Under the pieces are notes generated by a model, which saw nothing but the letters and a program-made list of their open reading frames with translations, was not told the origin of the DNA and did no database searches. A program made the translations under genes and the position numbers. This document shows, piece by piece, positions 36,691 through 46,817 of a DNA stretch of 64,000 nucleotides; position 1 is the stretch's first letter, and every line of letters starts with the position of its first letter. The DNA is from Candidatus Multivoradales bacterium (GTDB lineage Bacteria > Acidobacteriota > Thermoanaerobaculia > Multivoradales > JAHEKO01), in NCBI GenBank assembly GCA_965224065.1, contig CBDCYF010000005.1:3596491-3660490 (forward strand), read 5' to 3'.

Positions 36691-38357
36691 GCCTTCCCCT
36701 TCGCGTCCGACTCACGGCAAGCGCGGTCTTTTGGGTCATTCTGACGCTGGCCGCGCCCGGCGCGCGTGCCAACGAGGCCTCGGCGGTGGATGCCCCGGAG
36801 CCCGATCCGCTGCCGGAGGACGAGGCGCTCGAGGCCAATGGCGCTCGCATCGGCAAGATCTCGATCCAGGTGAGCGATGTCTTCGACATGCGGGACCCGG
36901 ACCAGAACAAAAAGATCTTTCGGTTTGTCAACCGGTTGCACCGCAAGACGCGCGACGGGGTGATCCTCGAGGAGTTGCTCTTCGAGCCCGGGGATCCGTA
37001 CTCGAGCCGGTTGTTGGCGGAGTCCGAAAGAAGGCTGCGCGAAAAACGGTACCTCTACGACGCCGAGATCAGACCAGTCGCCTATCGAGACGGCACGGTG
37101 GACATCCACGTCGACACCCGCGACGTGTGGACCTTGAATGGGGGGGTGGCGTTCTCGCGCAGCGGCGGTGAGAACACCACGCGATTCAGCGTGTCGGACA
37201 CCAATTTTCTCGGCACCGGCAAGGAAGTGGGGATCAGCCGCAAGGAGAACGTCGACCGGGTCCGCGCCGAGGCGCACTATCGCGACTTCAACCTCTTCGG
37301 CAATCACAGTGAGATCGAGATCTCGGTGTCCGACAACAGCGACGGCGACCGCTATCTTCTGCACCTGCGGCGGCCCTTTTTCGCGCTCGACACCCGCCGC
37401 TCGAAGGGCATCACGCTGCTCACCGAGGAACGGATCGACCCGATCTTCGATCGCGGTCAGGCGATTGCCGAGTTCCAGCACAAGATCGATGTGTTCGACG
37501 GCCACTGGGGGTTTTCCAGGGGGCTGAAAAACGGCTCGGTCAAGCGGTGGAAGTTCGGCTACACATTTATCAGGGACCGTTTCTTCGCCCTGCCGGATCG
37601 TCCGTCGACGATCCCGGTGCCGCCGGATCGGACGCTCTCCTACCCCTGGGTCGATTTCGAGTTCGTCCAGGATCGATTTATCGAGACCCGCGACCTCGAC
37701 AAGATCGCGCGTACCGAGGATTTGAATCTCGGGACGCGCTTCCAGACGCGGCTCGGTTTCTCGGCGCCGGCGTTTGGCGGTGACGAGGATCTGGCGATCT
37801 TTGGCACCAACGTTTCGTCCGGGTTCCACGTCGGTACCGGCAAGCTGTTGCTTGCGGACGCAAACGCCGGTCTGCGTTGGGGCCGGGACGGCCTCGACAC
37901 GCTGGCAGCGGGGATCAACGGCCGCTTCTACTGGCGCAACGGCAAGAACAAGGTCTTCTACTCGACGCTCCAGGCCGCGGCGGTAGAGGATCTCGACCCC
38001 GAGCGGCAGCTCCTGATCGGAGGCGACAGCGGCCTCCGTGGTTACCCACTGCGTTTCGAGAGCGGCGACCGCCGGGTCCTGCTCACCCTCGAGCAGCGAT
38101 TTTTCACCGGGCGGGAGTTTTTCAAGCTCGCCACGGCCGGTGCGGCGATTTTTTTCGACGCCGGGCGCGCCTGGTTTGTCGGGCAGGACCGAGCCGACGA
38201 TTTTGGCGTCCTCAAGGACATCGGCATCGGTCTGCGGCTCAGCCCGACGCGGTCGGGCGGCAAGACCATGGTGCATCTCGACGTCGCCTTTCCGCTCGAC
38301 GGGGACGGCTCGTTCGAGAGCGTCCAGTGGCTGGTCTCGACCCACGAGACTCTATGA
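36687..38357 (+). CDS. Omp85 (BamA/TamA) family outer-membrane protein with POTRA-like domain
   Basis: Signal peptide; LLAESERRLR; beta-barrel pattern; GGDSGLRGYP, FFDAGRAW, GIGLR, HLDVAFP; GTGA overlap with the previous gene. Confidence 0.85.
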   Translation: MSLPLRVRLTASAVFWVILTLAAPGARANEASAVDAPEPDPLPEDEALEANGARIGKISIQVSDVFDMRDPDQNKKIFRFVNRLHRKTRDGVILEELLFEPGDPYSSRLLAESERRLREKRYLYDAEIRPVAYRDGTVDIHVDTRDVWTLNGGVAFSRSGGENTTRFSVSDTNFLGTGKEVGISRKENVDRVRAEAHYRDFNLFGNHSEIEISVSDNSDGDRYLLHLRRPFFALDTRRSKGITLLTEERIDPIFDRGQAIAEFQHKIDVFDGHWGFSRGLKNGSVKRWKFGYTFIRDRFFALPDRPSTIPVPPDRTLSYPWVDFEFVQDRFIETRDLDKIARTEDLNLGTRFQTRLGFSAPAFGGDEDLAIFGTNVSSGFHVGTGKLLLADANAGLRWGRDGLDTLAAGINGRFYWRNGKNKVFYSTLQAAAVEDLDPERQLLIGGDSGLRGYPLRFESGDRRVLLTLEQRFFTGREFFKLATAGAAIFFDAGRAWFVGQDRADDFGVLKDIGIGLRLSPTRSGGKTMVHLDVAFPLDGDGSFESVQWLVSTHETL

Positions 38358-38435
38358 CCCCTGGACGGCACATGTTCATTGCCGGGTGTCGAGCCCTCTG
38401 CTAGCCTGTCTGTCTCACCCCAAACAAGGAGAACT

Positions 38436-39260
38436 ATGAAATCGAAACAGATCGCCGTCGTGGCTTGCTCGCTTCTGGCCCTGGCCGTTCCGTTGGCGGC
38501 CGACGGGGGCAAGAAGGATCTCCGCGAGGAGATCGAGGAGCTCAAAGCCGGCCAGCAGAAGATCCAAAAGGACCTGGCGGAGATCAAAAAGCTTCTCGAG
38601 GCCAGGCCGGCGCCGGCCGCTCAGGGGGCCGCGCGTCGCAGCGGAGCCAATGTCGAGAATGTGGTCTTTGACCTCGGGGACAACCCGGTCAAGGGCGAAT
38701 CCACGGCCAAGCTGACACTGGTCGAATTCTCCGACTATCAGTGACCGTTCTGCAGCCGTCACGTCCGTGAGACGTACCCGCAGATTGCCAAGGAATACAT
38801 CGACACCGGAAAGATCCGCTACGCTATGCTCGATCTGCCGCTCGAGCGCATCCACCCGTTGGCCTTCAAGGCCGCTGAGGCGACCGCTTGCGCCGCCGAT
38901 CAAGGCAAGTTCTGGGAGATGCACGACCGGCTCTTCGCCAACACCCGTAATCTCCAACAGTTGAGCCCGCACGCCGAGGCCGTCGGCCTCGACGTCGCCG
39001 CGTTCGACGAATGCATGGAGAGCAATCGTCACGCCACGGCGGTGCGCAAGGACATGGCCCAGGCCCGCAAGGCGGGCGCCACCGGCACGCCGGCCTTCCT
39101 GCTGGCCCTGACCGATCCGTCTGACCCGACCAAGGTCAAGGGGTTGACCACCTTCCGAGGAGCGCAACCGTTCAACACGTTCAAGACCCAGATCGATGGA
39201 GCGTTGCGCGATCTGGCCAAGGATGCGGCGCAGCCTGGTACGGGCTCGGCGACTCAGTAG
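38436..39260 (+). CDS. Secreted DsbA-like thioredoxin, predicted selenoprotein (U-P-F-C; in-frame TGA at 38742-38744)
   Basis: AAGGAG RBS, signal peptide, LVEFSDYQ-TGA-PFC; the same frame continues into the 38826-39260 ORF (DLPL..IHP, KFWEMHD, GATGTPAF cis-Pro loop). Confidence 0.88.
38750..38783 (+). promoter_or_regulatory. Predicted bacterial SECIS element of the DsbA-like gene
   Basis: CGTC-AC-[GTCC]-GT-ga-GACG stem-loop (38757-38774) inside an outer CTGC/GCAG stem; loop GU at +19/+20 after the UGA. Confidence 0.6.
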
Positions 39261-39290
39261 CGACGCTCTCCCAAAATCGACCTCAAAAAG

Positions 39291-39322
39291 AAAGGCCGGA
39301 GCCCGTCGGGGCTCCGGCCTTT
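39291..39322. terminator. Bidirectional intrinsic terminator between the convergent DsbA-like and M36 genes
   Basis: AAAGGCCGGAGCCC-GTCG-GGGCTCCGGCCTTT with A/T tracts on both sides. Confidence 0.9.
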
Positions 39323-39343
39323 TGGTTGTGGTCGATCAGACCG

Positions 39344-42223
39344 TCAGCAATCCGGGTCGGCCCCGTCGATGAGACCGTCGCAGTCGTTGTCGAGACCGTC
39401 CGAACACCGCGGACCTTTCTCCTTGGCGTGGGTCGGCACACAACCCTGACATGCGGGGTCGATGCCGTCACAATCGTCATCGTCGCAGTCGGTGGCCTGG
39501 TCACAGTCATTGTCGAGACTGTCCTGACAGGTCAGGTTGGGAATCTCGCTCAATGCAGGAGCGCCGCAGTCGAGCTCGCACGAGCAGCTATCTTCGCCCG
39601 CGTCGCACGACAGGTCGCCGCAGCAGAACCCCGGAACCGGGGTCGACGAGCAGGTGTTTCCCTGGCCGGTACAGCGAGAGTCGCTGCAGTCGACCATATT
39701 GCTGCCGCTGCCGGTTCCATCTCCGCTGCAACAGTAGCGATTGTTGGGGTTCCCGTTCTGCTGGCCGTTGCAATCGGACGGGCAACTGCCTGCAGTGCAG
39801 TCCTCACCCGGCTCGCAGACGCCGTTGCCGCAGATCGGCCCGGGAGCCTGACTCGGACAGTCGCTCGGACAGGCGATCGTTCCGCCGGTGCCGTCGCAGC
39901 TTTCGCCCGGATCGCAAACGCCATTGCCGCATCCGGTGGTGCACTGGGATGGCAGGTCGAACGCTTCGGTCACGGCGAGGCTGCTCGAGCTCCCGCCGTC
40001 GTCGGCACTAAAGCCCATGCCGCGCTTGGCGAATCCATCCCAAATCAGACACTCGTTGGCGCCACCGTTGTTGGCCTGGTCTGCCGCCAGGATGGCGTCG
40101 CGGGCATCCAGGAACGTCGGGTTGCACCCCTGGAGCTTGAGACCGTCCACGACGAGCTGGATGGCGACGTTGTTGCCTCCCGTTCCGTTGTAGAGATCGG
40201 CATCAAAACCCTGATCGTTGACCAGGTTCCAGTACACCTCCCACACCGCTGTGGCCCAGACCGTTCCGACGCCGTGGGGGATCGAAAGCGGATCGCCCGG
40301 CTGGCCGGCGGTCTGGATGTCGCCATAGGTCAGCGGGTTGTCGACCATATCCGTGGTGTAGGGATAGGCACGGATGCCGGCGCCCGGCGTGTTGTCAAAG
40401 ATCAGATACGAGCCGACGCCGCGAAGAGTCGTCTCCGTATCGGCCGCATCGGGGGTGAAAAAGAGCGTGCACAGGTCGCTCCAACCTTCGCCCGCTTGCT
40501 GGTCGCCACCCAGACAGTTGGTGCTGGGACCGCCGGTCAACCGGGTCGACAGGCCATGGCAATACTCGTGGGCGATCACGCCGGCGTCGAAGTCGCTGTC
40601 CCGGTTCGGCTGGGTGCTGCGAAGCGTGGCGTTGAGGCCTGCGCCCAGCGCCGCCTTGATGGTGTTTCCGTCGTTCTGGCTCACCATGACCGAGGGGATG
40701 GTCACCAGCTCGCCATCCACTCCGGGTCCCATGGCGAACGTCTCGGTACCTCCCTGGTTGTTGGCCACGATCGCCGCGATGGCGCCGGCGTTTTCTGCGT
40801 TGAGCACCTTGGTTCCGAACTCGCAGTTGCCTCGGTCGATCATTGCGATCCGGCCGGGGGTGAAACCGCTCAAAGACGAGCAGGCGTCAGCCGGGCTGGC
40901 CATCTCGACGTCCCCGGTGACTCCGGTGCCGTCCAGAAACGCTCCGAAAGAAGCCTGCGGGGCCCCGTAGATTCCCGCGGCGGTAGAAGGGGGATTGACC
41001 TCGACCTCGGCGGGAGCCCGCCAGACATACATCTGCATTCTTGGGTTGGTCGTGAACGGGCCATTGGGCTCGGGGGGAGTCGCCATATTGGCGTTGTCGG
41101 AGCTGGGTCGGATGCTCCCCGCGTTGTCCTGAGCATCGGCGTTCACCGAATCGCTGGCGAGGCCGCCGCGGCCGTAGTTGTTCTCCTGAAAATTGCCGCT
41201 GGCCTCGTCAAAGCCATACTGGTACAACAAGTCGTGCATGATGTTGTTCCAGTAGAACAAGTTGACGACCGCCGCGTCGACGTACTGGTCGGGCTCGTCG
41301 GCAAAGTTCAGCGGCACGACGGCACTGGTGAAGTCGAGCGAGCCGCCGCCGTCGGGTTGGGTCACGCCCCCGCAGGACGTATTGTTGCCGTCGCGGTCTT
41401 CCTGGGCGCAGACGTTGTTGCCGCGTGTCGTGGTGAACTCGGCACCCGCGGCCCCGTTGGTGTCGTGCCAGCCAAAGGGTGATGCAGTGCTTTCCGCGGG
41501 GTTGACTTCGATGGTTCGGCCGCCGTCGTTGGGCGACTCCTTGGGCAACGCAAAGACCTCATACTGGTCGTGGGCGACCCAGTCGTTCCGGGCCAGGATC
41601 TGCCCGTTCTCGGTGTCGACCCAGAGGTTCCACCAATGGCGGTTGTCGGCCTGGCGAATCGTCATCTCCCAAGCCAAGCGCACGTCGCCGGAATCGAGGG
41701 CATAGAAGGCCAGCTTGACCGGGATCTCGTCCTGCGACAGGCCGGCTCCGCTAAAGCGAGCCTCTCTCGCGGGCCCGCCGATGGAGGCGGTCTCAAAAAG
41801 CGTCTCCGGGATCTCCAGGCCGAGCTGCTCGGCTGCTTGCCGGATCGCGGTCTCCGCGTCGAGCCTTGGCCGGCGTGTGTTGATCTTGCCGGTGAGGTTG
41901 CCGACGAAACGGTTGCCGACGTGGAGCACGCGCCCGTCGGACGTTACGTTGACGTTGATGTGGCCATTTGCGACCTCGATGCCTTGAGAGCGCTGGCGAA
42001 AGTGAATGTGCGTGATTCCGTTGTTGCTGGACCGGTACTGGTTTTTGAGGAGTTTGTCGGCCACGTCCTCGGTCGTCAGGCCGAGGGCCGTGGCGTTGGC
42101 GTTGAGATGGCTCAAGGCGATGTCGAGGGGGGGCTGGGCCTGTGCCGTCGCCATGCCCGCGAGGGCAAGCGTCACCAAGGCCACGCTACAGCAGGTGGTG
42201 ATCTGTCGATGAAACCTCTTCAA
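39344..42223 (-). CDS. Secreted M36 (fungalysin) metallopeptidase with FTP propeptide, PA domain and Cys-rich C-terminal repeats
   Basis: Signal peptide; HIHFRQ propeptide; LFYWNNIMHD; NFQENN; NANMATP; PA domain DRGNCEF..KVLNAE; AHEYCH (HExxH); AGEGWSD; CGNGVCxxGExC and CxDxLDNDCD repeats. Confidence 0.93.
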   Translation of the reverse strand: MKRFHRQITTCCSVALVTLALAGMATAQAQPPLDIALSHLNANATALGLTTEDVADKLLKNQYRSSNNGITHIHFRQRSQGIEVANGHINVNVTSDGRVLHVGNRFVGNLTGKINTRRPRLDAETAIRQAAEQLGLEIPETLFETASIGGPAREARFSGAGLSQDEIPVKLAFYALDSGDVRLAWEMTIRQADNRHWWNLWVDTENGQILARNDWVAHDQYEVFALPKESPNDGGRTIEVNPAESTASPFGWHDTNGAAGAEFTTTRGNNVCAQEDRDGNNTSCGGVTQPDGGGSLDFTSAVVPLNFADEPDQYVDAAVVNLFYWNNIMHDLLYQYGFDEASGNFQENNYGRGGLASDSVNADAQDNAGSIRPSSDNANMATPPEPNGPFTTNPRMQMYVWRAPAEVEVNPPSTAAGIYGAPQASFGAFLDGTGVTGDVEMASPADACSSLSGFTPGRIAMIDRGNCEFGTKVLNAENAGAIAAIVANNQGGTETFAMGPGVDGELVTIPSVMVSQNDGNTIKAALGAGLNATLRSTQPNRDSDFDAGVIAHEYCHGLSTRLTGGPSTNCLGGDQQAGEGWSDLCTLFFTPDAADTETTLRGVGSYLIFDNTPGAGIRAYPYTTDMVDNPLTYGDIQTAGQPGDPLSIPHGVGTVWATAVWEVYWNLVNDQGFDADLYNGTGGNNVAIQLVVDGLKLQGCNPTFLDARDAILAADQANNGGANECLIWDGFAKRGMGFSADDGGSSSSLAVTEAFDLPSQCTTGCGNGVCDPGESCDGTGGTIACPSDCPSQAPGPICGNGVCEPGEDCTAGSCPSDCNGQQNGNPNNRYCCSGDGTGSGSNMVDCSDSRCTGQGNTCSSTPVPGFCCGDLSCDAGEDSCSCELDCGAPALSEIPNLTCQDSLDNDCDQATDCDDDDCDGIDPACQGCVPTHAKEKGPRCSDGLDNDCDGLIDGADPDC

Positions 42224-42905: not shown

Positions 42906-45900
42906 GTGGCATCTCCCTCTTCCATCGCGAGGCTTGCCGGCTGGGCCGTGCTGGCATTGGCCTTGGGCGCGATTCTGACGGGCTGTTCCGGGGAGTCCAC
43001 CGCGGACCGGCCGCGCGCCGAAGCCCTATCCGAGGACGGCGGCTCCACGGTGGCGCTGGTCCGGCGCGAAACGGCGCGCCGGCCCCCGACGCTGGTGGAG
43101 GCCATGGCCGAGAACGTCGATCCCTCGCGGGACGGCTGGAACAGCGAAGTGCTGAGCGCGGCGGCGTCCAAGCGGCTCAAGGAAATCGGGAAGATCCTGG
43201 AGGCGCCCCCCGGCACCCCTCTGGAGGGCGTCGAGGCGTGGGTCGACGAGGAGTTTGTCGGCCGCGCGCTCCGCCCCAACGTTCTCGAGGAGGCTTACTC
43301 CGACGGCGTCTTCACCATCCGCCGCTGGCAGAAGGACCGTGCCACCGGCGAGTCGCATCGCGGAGCCAAGGGGTTCGAGCTCGCTCTCGAGACCCTACGC
43401 ATGGCACGGGCCGCCGACGGCGAGGTTCGCGTGACGCTCAAGCCGGTGGCGATCGAAGAGGGGAGCGATTCGTTCTCGACCCACGTCTTCTTCGACTCGA
43501 GCCTCAGGGAGCGCGGTAGGGGGCTGCAGCGGAACGCGCTGTGGAATGTCGAATGGGCTTATCCGGTGGGGAAGCAGCCACCGCGGTTGCGCGCGGTCGA
43601 GATCGAGCGCTACGAAGAAGTCTCGTTTGCCGGCGACGGCGGCAGGCTTTTCGACGACTGCACACAGTCGGTTCTGGGCGCAAACGAATCCTATGAAACG
43701 CAGGTGCTGCCCGGGATCAACCATTGGCTGGGCCGGGTGAGCCTGATCGCCGGCATGACCATCGTCGGCTTCCATGGTCTGGCGGTGGGCGATGTCGATG
43801 GGGACGGGCTGGAAGACCTCTATGTCTGCGACGCCGCCGGTCTTCCCAACCGTTTGTTCGTGCAGAACCCCGACGGCACCGCGAGGGACGAGTCGGCCGC
43901 GGCCGGGGTCGATTGGCTGGAAGCCAGCTCGTCGGCGCTTTTTGTGGATCTGGACGGTGACGGCGACCAAGACCTGGCCGTGGCGCTGCGGCGTGGGCTG
44001 CTGCTGCACGAGAACGACGGTCGGGGCCGCTTTACGCTTCGCGCCGATCACAAGAACCTCGTCACTCGCTCGTCGTCACTCTCGGCGGCCGACTACGACG
44101 AAGACGGCGACCTCGATCTCTATGTGTGCGGCTACGATGGCGACCCCGACAACAAGGGTCTGCCCGGGCCGGTCCCCTACAACGACGCGGAGAACGGCGG
44201 AGCCAACGTCCTGCTGGCAAACCGCGGTGGTTTTCGCTTTGAAGACGTCACGGCCGAGAGCGGTCTCGACGTCAACAACACCCGCTGGAGCTTTGCCTCG
44301 GCATGGGACGACTACGACGGCGACGGCGACCTCGATCTGTATGTCGCCAATGACTACGGGCGCAACAATCTGTACCGCAACCGTGGAGCGGGCGCCCGGC
44401 CGCGATTTGAGGACGTGGCGCCCGAGACCGGCGTTGAGGACGTCGCCTCCGGCATGTCCGCGGCCTGGGGGGACTACAACCGCGACGGCCGCCCCGACAT
44501 CTATGTGAGCAACATGTTCTCTTCTGCCGGCGGTCGGATCGCGGACAAGACCCGGTTTGCAGAGTCCGCCTCCGAGCCTACGACCCGCGATCTGCAGCGC
44601 ATGGCCAGGGGAAACACCTTGTTCGAAAACGCCGGTGGCCACTTTCGCGACGTCAGTGTCGAATCCGGCGCCACCATGGGGCGCTGGGCCTGGGGCTCCA
44701 AGTTTGCGGACCTGAACAACGACTCCTGGCCCGACGTGGTGGTGACCAACGGCTATGTGACCAATGACGACAGCGGCGACTTGTGAAGCTTTTTCTGGCG
44801 GCAGGTCGTGTCGCGCTCACCCAAGGCCGAGAAAGCGCGCCAGGCGCTGGACGAGTACATCGCGAGCTGGCGAGCGATCACTCGGCTCCTGCGGGAGGGC
44901 CTCTCGTGGAGCGGCTACGAGAGAAACTGCGCATACCTCAATTGCGGTGACGGGCGGTTTGCCGATGTCTCCGCCGCTACCGGTCTGGATTTCGACGACG
45001 ACGGGCGGGCGCTGGCGGTGGTCGACTGGGATCACGACGGCGACCTGGATCTCTGGCTCTACAATCGAACCGGCCCACGCCTGCGGCTGATGCTCAACCA
45101 GAGCCCGGCCGACGGCGACCGCTCGGTGGCCTTCCGGCTGCGTGGCACCCACGCCAACCGCGATGGCGTCGGCGCCCGTGTCGAGGTCGAGTTGGAGGGC
45201 GACCGGCGGCGGCTGGTCGAGACTCTTTACGCCGGTGACGCCTACCTCTCGCAGTCTAGTAAGTGGGTGCACTTCGGCCTCGGGGAGAGCCCCGAGATCC
45301 GCCGCGTCACCGTCGCCTGGCCGGGTGGCGACCGCGAGGCGTTTGCCGGTGTCGTCCCCGGCGGTCGCTATCTGTTGGTAGAGGGCTCGGGCCGCGCCGA
45401 GGAGACGCCACGCCGCGCGGCCGTGACCCTGGCGCCGTCGCCGCCGTCCGGCTCGGTGCCGGGTGGCGGCGTCAAAGAAAGCGCGGAAACGAGGCTGTTT
45501 CTGCCTTCGCGAGTGCCGCTGCCGAGCCTGAGCTATGAGACCGGCGGCGACACGCCGGGTGTGTCGGCTCCGGTCCACCCGGGGCCAGGGCCCGACACGC
45601 CGGCGCTACTGCTCAACTTGTGGGCCAGTTGGTGTGGTCCCTGTGTGACCGAGCTGAAGGGACTGACAGAGCGGCGGGATGAGGTCCGGGCCGCCGGTCT
45701 CGACGTCATCGCACTCACCGTCGAAGAGGTAGACGGCGACGAAGCGACCGGCGCCGCTGACGCCGCGCGCCTTCTCGACCGTATTGACTTTCCCTTTCGC
45801 AGCGGTGTCGCCACCACCGAGCTGCTGGAGAAGATCGAGCTGGTGGAAGCCGTCCTCTACGACCGCAAGTGGCCGTTGGGGGTTCCGGTCAGCTTTTTGC

Positions 45901-46817
45901 TCGACCGGCAAGGGCGCCTGGCGGCGACCTATCGCGGCCCGGTCGACCTCGATGCTCTGCTCGAAGACGTCGCCGCGCTCGACGGGTCTTCCGCCGAGTT
46001 GCACAGTCGCTCCGCTCCGATTCCCGGCCGCTGGCACGCCCGCACCGCGGATGTCGATCTTCTCTGGCTGGGCAGTCAGTTCCGCGACCTCTATCCCCGC
46101 GAGATGGAGCACTACTACGAGTTGGAGCTCGAGCGCCAGACACGGCTCGCCACGCGATCGGGGGCTCCCACCGAGCACCAGCAGAGACGGCGAGGCGTGA
46201 TGTATCTGGACCTGGCGCAAGCGGCCTTCGAGAACGGGCGTATCGAGGATTCGATGACTCAACTGCGCAAAGCGATCGAAGTCGATCCCGGCTCGACCGT
46301 GGCGCGTCTCAATCTGGCCCAACTGCTGCGCTCCGCGGGCCGGACCCCTGAAGCCGTCGATCAGTATCGCGGCGCGCTGAAGGTGAATCCCGCCGACGCC
46401 GAGGCCCACTACGGCCTGGGCACGACCTTACTGGCGGCCGGCGAGGTCGGGGTCGCCTTCGATCATCTGCGCGAGGCCGCGCGTCTGTCGCCCGAATCCC
46501 CGGCACCGCTCCACGCCATGATCTGGGTGTTGCTCAATTACTCGAACCCGGACGATCGGCGGCAGCTCGGCGAAGCGCTCGAGCTTGCGGAGCGCGGCGT
46601 GGAGATGACGGACCGGCAGGACGCGAGGATGCTCGACGCGCTGGCAGCCGCCCAGGCAGCGATGGGGGAGTACGATCTCGCCGTCGAGACCGCGGAGCAG
46701 GCGGGTACCCTGGCGCGGGCCGCCGGGGAAGCCGCGCTGTTATCGCAGATCGAGCTGCGGCTCCGGTTTTTCCGTCGCGGTCTGCCGTTCCGGGAAGGCG
46801 CCACACCACCAGCTTGA
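42906..46817 (+). CDS. Lipoprotein FG-GAP / ASPIC-UnbV / TlpA-thioredoxin / TPR protein, predicted selenoprotein (in-frame TGA at 44784-44786)
   Basis: ORFs 42906-44786 and 44808-46817 share a frame; the junction reads NGYVTNDDSGDL-TGA-SFFWRQVVSRSP; lipobox LTGC; FG-GAP repeats on both sides of the TGA; YLSQSSKWVHFGLG; NLWASWCGPC; TPRs; fdhF-like SECIS follows. Confidence 0.82.
44798..44814 (+). promoter_or_regulatory. Predicted bacterial SECIS element
   Basis: GCGGCA-[GGTCG]-TGTCGC 6-bp stem starting 12 nt after the UGA; contains GCAGGTC, as in the E. coli fdhF SECIS apical loop. Confidence 0.72.

What the first reader, a model, noticed from the sequence alone, without database searches (positions are those of the whole stretch)
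38436..39260. Secreted DsbA-like thioredoxin with a U-P-F-C active site hidden by an in-frame TGA
Seen: EFSDYQ-TGA-PFC sits where DsbA/DsbG-like proteins have EFSDYQCPFC, and the frame continues through the rest of the fold (HP, KFWEMHD, GTP cis-Pro loop) to 39260. A SECIS-like hairpin follows. Established: Sec replaces the attacking N-terminal Cys of CxxC in thioredoxin-fold selenoproteins, and DsbA-like selenoproteins are a known class. The signal peptide and coiled-coil N-terminus imply an exported selenoprotein, directly downstream of an Omp85 gene. Automated annotation would call this a split gene or pseudogene.
Basis: partly seen in the sequence, partly recalled or inferred. Interest (0 to 1): 0.68.

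Follow-up and report, generated by a model that had tools for sequence, protein, structure and literature searches.

The report
Exported DsbA-like selenoprotein, mis-annotated as two genes
This is a real gene for an exported thiol-disulfide enzyme whose active-site cysteine is replaced by selenocysteine, encoded by a UGA that gene callers read as a stop; it is a well-supported new member of a known class of selenoproteins.

Summary
ORF 38436-39260 (+) has one in-frame TGA (38742-38744) inside EFSDYQ-U-PFC. Thioredoxin_4 and DSBA Pfam matches span both sides of it.

Evidence that the TGA encodes selenocysteine:
- 60 homologues have TGC or TGT at that column.
- 19 orthologues in other assemblies (Acidobacteriota, Nitrospirota) keep TGA.
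- Only the TGA forms share a sequence-conserved hairpin 21 nt downstream, (A)CGUC-CGUGA-GACG(U). Its synonymous sites are frozen and it shows compensatory changes. It meets the published bacterial SECIS constraints.
- The genome has selA, selB, selD and tRNA-Sec.
- Three independent sequencing runs give the identical sequence.
- Public gene calls split the gene into 102-aa and 144-aa proteins.

The product has a type I signal peptide, a conserved heptad helix (residues 26-56), an Ala/Pro linker and a DsbA-fold domain (AlphaFold2 pLDDT 88.5). This layout matches the trimeric ScsC/BcfH reductase-isomerases. The genome has a DsbD/ScsB-like protein, but no DsbB or VKOR was detected. I therefore infer a reducing or isomerising role; this is not shown.

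UxxC DsbA-like and DsbG-like selenoproteins are already catalogued. The nearest curated model, NF041057, scores 111.6 bits against a cut-off of 190. I file this as a new member of a known kind. Linkage to the upstream POTRA/Omp85-like gene is not conserved.

The parts
38426..38431 (+). Shine-Dalgarno-like AAGGAG, 4 nt before the ATG
   Evidence: Read directly from the sequence.
38436..39260 (+). Complete selenoprotein gene: 274 codons plus TAG, read through the TGA at codon 103
   Evidence: Translation. Pfam Thioredoxin_4 and DSBA matches span the TGA. Full-length alignment to 25 homologues.
38436..38504 (+). Type I signal peptide, about residues 1-22/23 (MKSK, hydrophobic core, PLAA|DGG); the exact cleavage site is inferred
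   Evidence: Orthologues have the same layout, ending in A-x-A before Q (for example PALAQ, AAQAQ), with no conserved lipobox Cys. AF2 confidence is low here.
38511..38603 (+). Conserved amphipathic heptad helix, residues 26-56 (L..IE.LK.GQ..I...L.EIK.LL); the presumed oligomerisation stalk
   Evidence: AF2 helix 26-56 with block pLDDT of 92-96 over residues 31-50. The motif is conserved in Sec and Cys homologues. The same helix-linker-DsbA layout is found in ScsC and BcfH structures.
38742..38744 (+). Sec codon UGA (U103), the first position of the U-P-F-C redox motif
   Evidence: 60 homologues have TGC or TGT at this column and 19 orthologues have TGA. Five more TGA orthologues are in related genomes. 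Contigs from sequencing runs are identical.
38751..38753 (+). Resolving Cys106 (TGC) of the UxxC motif
   Evidence: Invariant column C106.
38750..38783 (+). SECIS element. Lower stem CUGC/GCAG (38750-38753 with 38780-38783). Upper stem GU.ACGUC/GACGUAC (38758-38765 with 38771-38777). Apical loop CGUGA (38766-38770), 21 nt after the UGA
   Evidence: Third-codon-position information is 1.7-2.0 bits at codons +6 to +10 in Sec forms, against 0.01-1.25 in Cys forms. Per-sequence folds. 86.6% of cells are paired, against 22-44% when partners are slid. The closing pair changes C:G to G:C in L098. The element meets the bSECIS constraints quoted.
38889..38891 (+). Cys152, one half of a second invariant Cys pair (with Cys193) in the helical insert
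   Evidence: Invariant columns C152 and C193. The top structural match, Wolbachia alpha-DsbA1, also has a second Cys pair, as shown by its C97A/C146A mutant entry. That the pair forms a disulfide is inferred.
39012..39014 (+). Cys193, partner of Cys152
   Evidence: Invariant column.
39087..39092 (+). Thr218-Pro219, the conserved 'cis-Pro' loop of the thioredoxin fold
   Evidence: T218 and P219 are invariant and lie just before strand 220-226 of the model. The cis conformation is not testable here.
39291..39322 (.). GC-rich 14-bp hairpin with a T-run on either strand: a bidirectional intrinsic terminator shared with the convergent M36 peptidase gene (39344-42223, minus strand)
   Evidence: Terminator scan and sequence.

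Best explanation
38436-39260 is one intact gene for an exported thiol-disulfide oxidoreductase of the DsbA fold (Pfam Thioredoxin_4). The attacking N-terminal cysteine of its CxxC motif is selenocysteine (U-P-F-C).

Decoding. The UGA at 38742 is decoded by SelB and Sec-tRNA(Sec). They are recruited by a SECIS hairpin inside the coding sequence at 38750-38783, whose apical loop CGUGA lies 21 nt after the UGA. This step is inferred from the shown SECIS conservation and the presence of the Sec machinery.

Product. After signal-peptide cleavage the mature protein has a heptad-repeat helix (residues 26-56), a flexible Ala/Pro linker and a catalytic DsbA-like domain with a second, probably structural, Cys pair (C152/C193).

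Function (inferred, about 50% likely). The helix oligomerises the protein, as in trimeric ScsC and BcfH. The enzyme then works on the reducing or isomerising side, with the selenolate attacking wrong or unwanted disulfides in envelope or secreted proteins. The genome's DsbD/ScsB-like membrane reductase would recycle it, rather than a DsbB or VKOR oxidase.

Origin (inferred). Sec probably arose once in this clade, because the SECIS sequence is shared across Acidobacteriota and Nitrospirota, and it was replaced by Cys several times.
For: Gene and fold. The Pfam matches span the TGA. The alignment has invariant C103(U), C106, T218-P219, C152 and C193. The AF2 model has pLDDT 88.5. The top Foldseek matches are Wolbachia alpha-DsbA1 (E 2.8e-14), C. 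diphtheriae DsbA and TsdA, and BdbD. ScsC (7rgv, 4xvw) and BcfH (7jve) align over 247-268 columns including the N-terminal helix.

Sec decoding.
- Cys/Sec pairing: 60 homologues have TGC or TGT and 20 sequences have TGA at this column.
- Only the TGA forms conserve CACGUCCGUGAGACG. Synonymous positions carry 1.7-2.0 bits there. In Cys forms the third position of the same conserved Thr codon carries 0.01 bit.
- 86.6% of helix cells are paired, against 22-44% for slid controls. Pair 18:35 occurs as AU, GC and UA.
- The closing pair changes C:G to G:C in L098.
- The bSECIS constraints are met: loop of 5 nt with G at position 2 followed by U, upper stem of 7 bp, spacing of 21 nt, MFE -11.9 kcal/mol.
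- The machinery is present: selA 378 bits, selB 340 bits, selD 265 bits, all above their cut-offs. tRNA-Sec is found by ARAGORN and by Rfam at 71.3 bits.
- Contigs from runs X1, X2 and X4 are identical.

Export. Signal peptides of the A-x-A type are conserved in orthologues.

Reducing or isomerising side. No VKOR and no DsbB were found. One DsbD_N + DsbD_TM + thioredoxin protein of about 900 aa is present.

Single origin. With correct labels, the 21 Sec rows need 7 label changes on the tree, against 19 when labels are shuffled, and they share a SECIS sequence.
Against: No experimental evidence of selenium incorporation or of expression is available. All runs found are stored as assembled contigs of unknown library type.

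The single-sequence fold is no more stable than shuffled sequence (z = -0.43), and Rfam reports nothing here. The four apical stem pairs are invariant in the first 20 sequences, so most of the support comes from synonymous-site freezing and from the lower pairs, plus one compensatory change (L098).

The functional direction (reductase-isomerase or oxidase) rests on three weak points. Architecture resemblance holds only at the monomer level, with rmsd of 10-18 A over the full length because the helix orientation is free. DsbB and VKOR are absent only by HMM search, which could miss divergent forms. The DsbD-like gene is not adjacent. The closest sequence relatives with solved structures (C. diphtheriae DsbA, BdbD) are named as DsbA-type or disulfide-bond-formation proteins in PDB and, from my own knowledge, act as oxidases. 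Gene neighbourhood is not conserved, so context gives no functional clue.
Confidence: 0.88

Rival explanations
1. It is a genuine selenoprotein, but it works as a DsbA/BdbD/MdbA-type oxidase that introduces disulfides into exported proteins. An unidentified oxidant would re-oxidise it.
For: The best sequence matches among solved structures are C. diphtheriae DsbA (E 3e-17) and B. subtilis BdbD (E 1.7e-12). The top fold match is Wolbachia alpha-DsbA1. From my own knowledge these act as oxidases.
Against: No DsbB or VKOR partner was detected in a 99% complete genome. The N-terminal heptad helix plus linker is the hallmark of oligomeric ScsC and BcfH, not of monomeric DsbA or BdbD. From my own knowledge, a selenenylsulfide is a weaker oxidant than the matching disulfide, while a selenolate is the better nucleophile. 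The neighbourhood is not conserved.
Confidence: 0.3
2. The TGA is a true stop. The locus is a pseudogene or two separate genes (102 aa and 144 aa), as public gene calls have it.
For: Gene callers annotate exactly these two products. TGA is a normal stop in this genome, as shown by the upstream gene's stop at 38355-38357.
Against: Neither fragment is a complete thioredoxin fold, and the Pfam domains span the TGA. TGA is kept at the same column in 19 or more other assemblies across two phyla, with both halves under protein-level conservation. The 3' flank shows RNA-level constraint only in TGA forms. The genome has the full Sec machinery.
Confidence: 0.03
3. The UGA is read through, but by a near-cognate tRNA (Cys or Trp) or some other recoding, not by Sec-tRNA(Sec).
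For: Nothing here measures which residue is inserted. From my own knowledge, low-level Cys or Trp insertion at UGA is known when selenium is limiting.
Against: The conserved downstream hairpin fits the SelB-dependent bSECIS model in loop, spacing and stability. The position is the catalytic Cys of a redox motif, the classic Sec site. The genome keeps selA, selB, selD and selC.
Confidence: 0.04
4. A sequencing or assembly error turned TGC or TGT into TGA.
For: None was found.
Against: Contigs from three runs of different samples are identical over 1101 nt at 4.7x, 23x and 23x. A fourth run from another study also covers the TGA. The orthologues have TGA as well.
Confidence: 0.01

Closest known systems
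'DsbG-like protein' selenoprotein family, which is NCBIfam NF041057 'Rcas_1661 family thioredoxin-like (seleno)lipoprotein' (listed with a UxxC motif in PMC13188914)
   Same: It is the best NCBIfam hit (E 4e-32). Both have a DsbA/Thioredoxin_4-type fold, a UxxC motif with Sec in the first position, and are exported.
   Different: The window protein scores 111.6 bits against a curated cut-off of 190. All eight clade members and paralogues tested score 101-140 bits. It has a type I signal peptide with no conserved lipobox, so it is not a lipoprotein. It also has an N-terminal heptad helix.
'DsbA-like protein (form 1)' selenoproteins of the Sargasso Sea and deltaproteobacterial surveys (COG2761/PF01323, UxxC; PMC1088965, PMC1794560)
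   Same: Both have a UxxC motif in a DsbA-fold protein with widespread Cys homologues and a SECIS directly after the UGA. PF01323 matches at 66.7 bits.
   Different: From my own knowledge, COG2761 is the FrnE-type branch. FrnE structures match only residues 144-224 here (E about 3e-6). The stronger family match is Thioredoxin_4 (91 bits). The hosts are Acidobacteriota and Nitrospirota.
Trimeric ScsC (Proteus mirabilis 4xvw/5id4, Caulobacter 7rgv) and BcfH (Salmonella 7jve) disulfide reductase-isomerases
   Same: Both are laid out as signal peptide, N-terminal helix, flexible linker and DsbA-like catalytic domain. Foldseek aligns 247-268 columns including the helix. A ScsB/DsbD-like partner is encoded in the genome.
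   Different: Sequence identity is only 19-23%. The active site has Sec instead of Cys. The oligomeric state is not tested. The DsbD-like gene is not adjacent, and no copper-resistance context was seen.
Wolbachia alpha-DsbA1 (3f4r), C. diphtheriae DsbA and TsdA (4pwo, 7unn), B. subtilis BdbD (3eu3)
   Same: These are the closest solved catalytic domains (TMt 0.79-0.80 for alpha-DsbA1 and BdbD, 0.57-0.60 for the C. diphtheriae DsbA and TsdA entries). The EFSD[FY][EQ]CPFC motif is shared. The alpha-DsbA1 entry for the C97A/C146A mutant shows that it too has a second Cys pair.
   Different: All have Cys, not Sec, and none has the N-terminal heptad helix.
E. coli fdhF-type bacterial SECIS and the bSECISearch consensus model (as summarised in PMC13188914)
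   Same: The hairpin lies in the coding sequence right after the UGA. It has a small apical loop with G then U among its first positions, a spacing of 21 nt (allowed 16-37), an upper stem of 4 bp or more, and an MFE of -7.5 kcal/mol or lower.
   Different: The primary sequence is unrelated. Here the element is conserved at sequence level across two phyla, which is unusual for bSECIS elements. [quoted passage not shown]

Membership tests
Bacterial selenoprotein gene (SelB/SECIS-dependent UGA recoding) | In-frame UGA aligned with a conserved Cys in homologues (Cys/Sec pair) | tested here: met
   60 homologous loci have TGC or TGT at the column. C103 is invariant in the protein alignment.
Bacterial selenoprotein gene (SelB/SECIS-dependent UGA recoding) | TGA-containing orthologues in other organisms | tested here: met
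   19 loci from Acidobacteriota and Nitrospirota MAGs, plus TGA orthologues in 6 of 24 same-family genomes. At least one of these, G023/L099, appears to be the same contig as L018.
Bacterial selenoprotein gene (SelB/SECIS-dependent UGA recoding) | [quoted passage not shown] | tested here: met
   Loop CGUGA, upper stem of 5+2 bp, spacing of 21 nt, MFE -11.9 kcal/mol, against the constraints quoted.
Bacterial selenoprotein gene (SelB/SECIS-dependent UGA recoding) | Genome encodes selA, selB, selD and tRNA-Sec (selC) | tested here: met
   all above curated cut-offs; ARAGORN, anticodon tca; Rfam RF01852, 71.3 bits against a threshold of 47.
Bacterial selenoprotein gene (SelB/SECIS-dependent UGA recoding) | Selenium actually incorporated at the UGA position | not testable with these tools
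   This needs 75Se labelling or mass spectrometry.
DsbA-like thioredoxin-fold oxidoreductase (Pfam PF13462 Thioredoxin_4 / PF01323 DSBA) | Profile match above the gathering threshold | tested here: met
   PF13462 scores 91 bits (cut-off 23.2) and PF01323 scores 66.7 bits (cut-off 25.6).
DsbA-like thioredoxin-fold oxidoreductase (Pfam PF13462 Thioredoxin_4 / PF01323 DSBA) | CxxC-type redox motif at the start of helix 1, and a conserved Pro loop before strand 3 of the thioredoxin core | tested here: met
   U103-P-F-C106 lies at the start of helix 104-122. T218-P219 are invariant and lie before strand 220-226. The cis conformation itself is not testable.
DsbA-like thioredoxin-fold oxidoreductase (Pfam PF13462 Thioredoxin_4 / PF01323 DSBA) | Thioredoxin core with an inserted helical domain | tested here: met
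   The AF2 model has helices 143-212 between strands 128-133 and 220-226. Foldseek probability is 1.00 to DsbA-class structures.
NF041057 Rcas_1661 family thioredoxin-like (seleno)lipoprotein ('DsbG-like' selenoprotein family) | Score at or above the curated equivalog cut-off (190 bits) | tested here: not met
   111.6 bits. Orthologues and paralogues score 101-140 bits.
NF041057 Rcas_1661 family thioredoxin-like (seleno)lipoprotein ('DsbG-like' selenoprotein family) | Lipoprotein signal (lipobox Cys) | tested here: not met
   Orthologue N-termini end in A-x-A followed by Q, with no conserved Cys. The window's Cys11 is not conserved.
Trimeric ScsC/BcfH-type reductase-isomerases | N-terminal oligomerisation helix, flexible linker and DsbA-like domain | tested here: met
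   Helix 26-56, a low-pLDDT linker at about residues 57-72, and the catalytic domain. Full-length alignment to 7rgv, 4xvw, 5id4 and 7jve. A heptad pattern is conserved.
Trimeric ScsC/BcfH-type reductase-isomerases | Forms a trimer and is kept reduced by ScsB or DsbD | not testable with these tools
   A DsbD_N + DsbD_TM + thioredoxin protein exists in the genome. Neither the interaction nor the oligomeric state can be computed here.
Trimeric ScsC/BcfH-type reductase-isomerases | Genetic linkage to scsB or to a copper-stress or fimbrial operon | tested here: not met
   The neighbours are BNR_4, a POTRA protein and an M36 peptidase. The DsbD-like gene lies about 2.86 Mb away on the contig. The neighbourhood is not conserved.

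The most novel reading that the evidence does not exclude
This clade would be the first selenocysteine-containing version of the oligomeric ScsC/BcfH-type periplasmic disulfide reductase-isomerase. It would operate with a DsbD/ScsB-like reductase in bacteria that appear to lack any DsbB or VKOR oxidase. It would descend from a single ancient Cys-to-Sec switch whose SECIS has stayed conserved at sequence level across Acidobacteriota and Nitrospirota. That conservation would give a natural system for asking what Sec buys in envelope disulfide chemistry, because Sec and Cys orthologues at 55-65% identity exist side by side.
Probability: 0.35. Interest if true: 0.55.

Novelty: new member of a known kind. 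Interest (0 to 1): 0.4.

Why it matters
There are three practical consequences.

1. Annotation. This gene and at least 19 orthologues are recorded as two truncated proteins or are missed. The only curated selenoprotein model for this superfamily (NF041057) does not reach them. A dedicated model, or the conserved SECIS string UGA-N17-ACGUCCGUGAGACG, would recover the clade.

2. Selenoproteome size. The genome carries at least three selenoprotein genes of exported redox proteins: this one, a second DsbA-like paralogue, and the propeller-thioredoxin gene 3.6 kb downstream described in earlier notes. Envelope thiol chemistry therefore appears to be a main use of selenium in these Acidobacteriota.

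3. An experimental handle. Closely related Sec and Cys forms with the same architecture would allow a clean comparison of selenolate and thiolate catalysis in disulfide exchange.

None of this changes the understanding of Sec decoding or of Dsb systems, so the finding is of moderate interest.

Tried and rejected
- Rfam scan of 38000-39800 at E up to 10. It returned only chance-level hits and nothing at the hairpin, so it gave no support for or against the SECIS.
- Single-sequence folding significance of the hairpin. The result was not significant (z = -0.43). The case rests on comparative data instead.
- RNAalifold on the 48-nt alignment recovered only the invariant 4-bp apical stem, because the sub-apical pairs use two registers. 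I tested both registers by explicit pair counts.
- Conserved gene neighbourhood. The BNR_4, POTRA, M36, FG-GAP and COX2 neighbours were searched by tblastn against 80 loci. Only one partial hit appeared (the M36 C-terminal tail in L018), so I dropped the idea of an Omp85-DsbA functional module.
- The first tree used a faulty Sec label, which counted any '*' in the HSP. It wrongly marked L055, L070, L078, L079, L084 and L091. I redid the tree with labels taken from the codon at column 103.
- Lipoprotein reading (AVVAC as a lipobox). Rejected because the hydrophobic stretch before Cys11 is too short and the Cys is not conserved.
- RNA evidence for co-transcription. No RNA runs could be identified. 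All runs are Logan contigs of unknown library type. No promoter-like or terminator-like site was found in the 78-nt gap to the upstream gene, so co-transcription stays open.
- One Pfam call failed on wrong coordinates.
Full report
**1. What is in the sequence**

On the + strand an ATG at 38436, preceded by AAGGAG at 38426-38431, opens a frame that runs to TAG at 39258-39260. The frame has a single in-frame TGA at 38742-38744, codon 103. Read through, the 274-residue product contains LVEFSDYQ-U-PFCSRH. It matches Pfam Thioredoxin_4 (PF13462, E 1.2e-25, residues 82-223) and DSBA (PF01323, E 3.2e-18, residues 94-253). Both matches span the TGA.

TGA is otherwise an ordinary stop here: the upstream gene ends with TGA at 38355-38357. 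A strong GC-rich hairpin with T-runs on both strands (39291-39322) follows the gene. It also serves the convergent M36 peptidase gene at 39344-42223.

**2. The TGA is not an error**

Logan contigs from three runs of different samples (X1, X2, X4) cover 38300-39400 with zero differences, at word depths of 4.7, 23 and 23. A fourth run from another study covers 38698-38816 identically.

**3. Cys/Sec pairing and TGA orthologues**

A scan of one genome per species returned 80 related loci. I extracted the codon aligned to residue 103.
- 19 loci have TGA. They come from Acidobacteriota and Nitrospirota MAGs at 45-71% identity.
- 60 loci have TGC or TGT.
- The protein database returns thousands of full-length Cys homologues at up to about 65% identity.
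- In a 26-sequence alignment the column is invariant Cys/Sec. C106, T218-P219 and a second pair C152/C193 are also invariant.
- In a separate search of 40 related genomes, 6 of 24 same-family genomes carry an orthologue with one internal TGA. Two further orthologue-level matches have no internal TGA and are presumably Cys forms. The distribution is patchy.

**4. The SECIS**

Taken alone, the hairpin after the TGA is no more stable than shuffled sequence (z = -0.43), and Rfam reports nothing there. The comparative signal, however, is strong.

- *Sequence conservation.* All 20 TGA forms share UGA-N17-(A)CGUC-CGUGA-GACG(U).
- *Frozen synonymous sites.* Information at third codon positions is 1.7-2.0 bits for codons +6 to +10 (CAC GUC CGU GAG ACG) in the TGA forms, against 0.01-1.25 bits in the 60 Cys forms. 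The Thr at +10 is conserved as an amino acid in 53 of 60 Cys forms, yet its third position carries 0.01 bit there and 2.0 bits in the Sec forms. That is the signature of an RNA constraint present only when the codon is UGA.
- *Per-sequence folds.* Each gives the same apical hairpin on a CUGC/GCAG lower stem.
- *Explicit pair counts.* 86.6% of cells are paired, against 22-44% when partners are slid by 1-3 columns. Pair 18:35 occurs as AU, GC and UA.
- *Compensatory change.* One further orthologue (L098) changes the loop-closing pair from C:G to G:C, using a synonymous GUC-to-GUG change and a GAG-to-GAC change.
[quoted passage not shown] It also requires an upper stem of 4-16 bp, 16-37 nt from the UGA, and an MFE of -7.5 kcal/mol or lower (PMC13188914). 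The window element has loop CGUGA, an upper stem of 5+2 bp, a spacing of 21 nt and an MFE of -11.9 kcal/mol. All constraints are met.

**5. Sec machinery**

The genome is 4.1 Mb, 65% GC and 99% complete. It encodes:
- selA (378 bits);
- selB (340 bits against a cut-off of 242);
- selD (265 bits against a cut-off of 125);
- a tRNA-Sec with anticodon UCA (ARAGORN; Rfam RF01852 at 71.3 bits against a threshold of 47).

**6. Annotation status**

The exact 102-aa product (38436-38741) and the exact 144-aa product (38826-39257) are on record from NCBI and ENA gene calls of this genome. The full-length protein is not.

**7. The protein**

- *Signal peptide.* Orthologue N-termini are type I signal peptides: a basic n-region, a hydrophobic core, then A-x-A before Q. 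There is no conserved lipobox.
- *Heptad helix.* Next comes a conserved amphipathic motif, L..IE.LK.GQ..I...L.EIK.LL. Hydrophobic residues are spaced 3-4-3-4, with a conserved Gln at one core position.
- *Linker and domain.* An Ala/Pro-rich linker follows, then the catalytic domain.
- *Model.* AlphaFold2 on the 26-sequence alignment gives mean pLDDT 88.5. It shows a helix at 26-56, a disordered linker, and a thioredoxin core with a helical insert at 77-265.
- *Fold matches.* Foldseek against the PDB puts Wolbachia alpha-DsbA1 first (E 2.8e-14, TMt 0.79), followed by C. diphtheriae DsbA and TsdA, and BdbD. The trimeric ScsC proteins (7rgv, 4xvw, 5id4) and BcfH (7jve) align over 247-268 columns. 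That alignment includes the N-terminal helix, with high rmsd because the helix orientation is free (sequence-level matches).

**8. Direction of the redox reaction (inferred)**

HMM searches of the six-frame genome find no VKOR and no DsbB. They find one DsbD_TM hit. It belongs to a protein of about 900 aa with DsbD_N, DsbD_TM and a C-terminal thioredoxin domain, plus a long N-terminal extension.

Three points together favour a reductase-isomerase recycled by the DsbD/ScsB-like protein:
- the helix-linker-DsbA layout;
- the presence of that partner and the apparent absence of an oxidase partner;
- established chemistry (my own knowledge): a selenolate is a better nucleophile and leaving group than a thiolate, and a selenenylsulfide is a weaker oxidant than the matching disulfide.

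I put this at roughly 50%, and a DsbA/BdbD-like oxidase role at roughly 30%. Gene context does not help. The upstream gene passes only the POTRA threshold, with Omp85 at 13.2 bits against a cut-off of 24. None of the window's neighbours is conserved next to the orthologues.

**9. Evolution**

On a tree of 82 domain sequences, with labels taken from the actual codon, the 21 Sec rows need 7 label changes against 19 for shuffled labels. The window sits in a well-supported 19-row clade of 15 Sec and 4 Cys forms. The first tree had the same topology near the window, but some of its labels were wrong.

The acidobacterial and nitrospirotal Sec forms share the same SECIS sequence. The simplest history is therefore one Cys-to-Sec gain followed by several reversions. 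This is an inference.

**10. Comparison with what is known**

UxxC 'DsbA-like' and 'DsbG-like' selenoproteins have been catalogued since 2005-2006 (PMC1088965, PMC1794560). The 2026 review equates 'DsbG-like' with NCBIfam NF041057 and 'DsbA-like form 1' with PF01323/COG2761.

NF041057 is the best NCBIfam hit here, but at 111.6 bits against a cut-off of 190. Four further Sec orthologues, two Cys homologues and both in-genome paralogues score 101-140 bits. That family is also described as lipoproteins, which these are not.

So the protein works like those families and is homologous to them, but it fails the membership test of the curated model. I file it as a new member, a distinct sub-clade, of a known kind.

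**11. Earlier notes of this scan**

An earlier follow-up (e1-5068126) had already judged both this TGA and the one in the gene at 42906-46817 to be Sec codons with unrelated hairpins. My independent tests agree for this gene. I did not re-examine the second gene.

**12. Verdict**

The selenoprotein reading is about 0.9 likely. The specific reductase-isomerase mechanism is plausible but untested. Interest is moderate: this is a clean, unannotated, widely conserved selenoprotein clade with an unusually sequence-conserved SECIS, within an already known class.

Noticed in passing
L094:781-1605 (-), which is G000:C5:328580-329404; TGA at C5:329047-329045: There is a second DsbA-like selenoprotein paralogue in the same genome, with the motif EFSDFQ-U-PFCAR. 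It has an N-terminal membrane anchor and a short helical segment. A different and stronger hairpin follows its UGA (-19.6 kcal/mol). NF041057 scores 101.5 bits. A same-genus genome (G001) has a TGA-containing match at a similar identity level (42%).
   Followed up: partly
L095:808-1863 (-), which is G000:C5:1664207-1665262: There is a Cys-form paralogue (EFSDFECPFCSR) with a long helical N-terminal extension of about 190 residues. Matches at this level (about 44-50% identity, no internal stop) are found in most related genomes.
   Followed up: no
L093:22-2727 (+), which is G000:C5:775950-778655: This is the only DsbD_TM protein in the genome. It is about 900 aa with DsbD_N, DsbD_TM and a C-terminal thioredoxin domain, plus an N-terminal extension of about 340 residues (ScsB-like?). 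No DsbB or VKOR homologue was detected anywhere in the genome.
   Followed up: partly
L098:1554-1601 (+): This orthologue carries a compensatory C:G to G:C change at the loop-closing pair of the otherwise invariant SECIS apical stem (ACGUG-CGUGA-CACGU).
   Followed up: yes
L018:5177-5539 (-): In one orthologous locus the convergent downstream gene shares (52% identity) only the Cys/Asp-rich C-terminal tail (residues 767-893) of the window's M36 peptidase (39344-42223). This is a possible recurring neighbour domain.
   Followed up: no
Omp85 scores 13.2 bits and ShlB 12 bits, both below their cut-offs. It is probably a divergent POTRA-plus-barrel protein.
   Followed up: partly
window 38753-38907: In run X1 one low-depth contig (5.5x) joins 38753 to 38907, skipping 153 nt. 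Several short contigs also pile up on 38892-38947, the KFWEMHD region. These are most likely related paralogues or other strains in a mixed sample.
   Followed up: no
window 42906-46817 (+): Earlier notes describe a second selenoprotein gene (an FG-GAP propeller-thioredoxin lipoprotein) 3.6 kb downstream. Here I confirmed only the FG-GAP domains of its first ORF.
   Followed up: no
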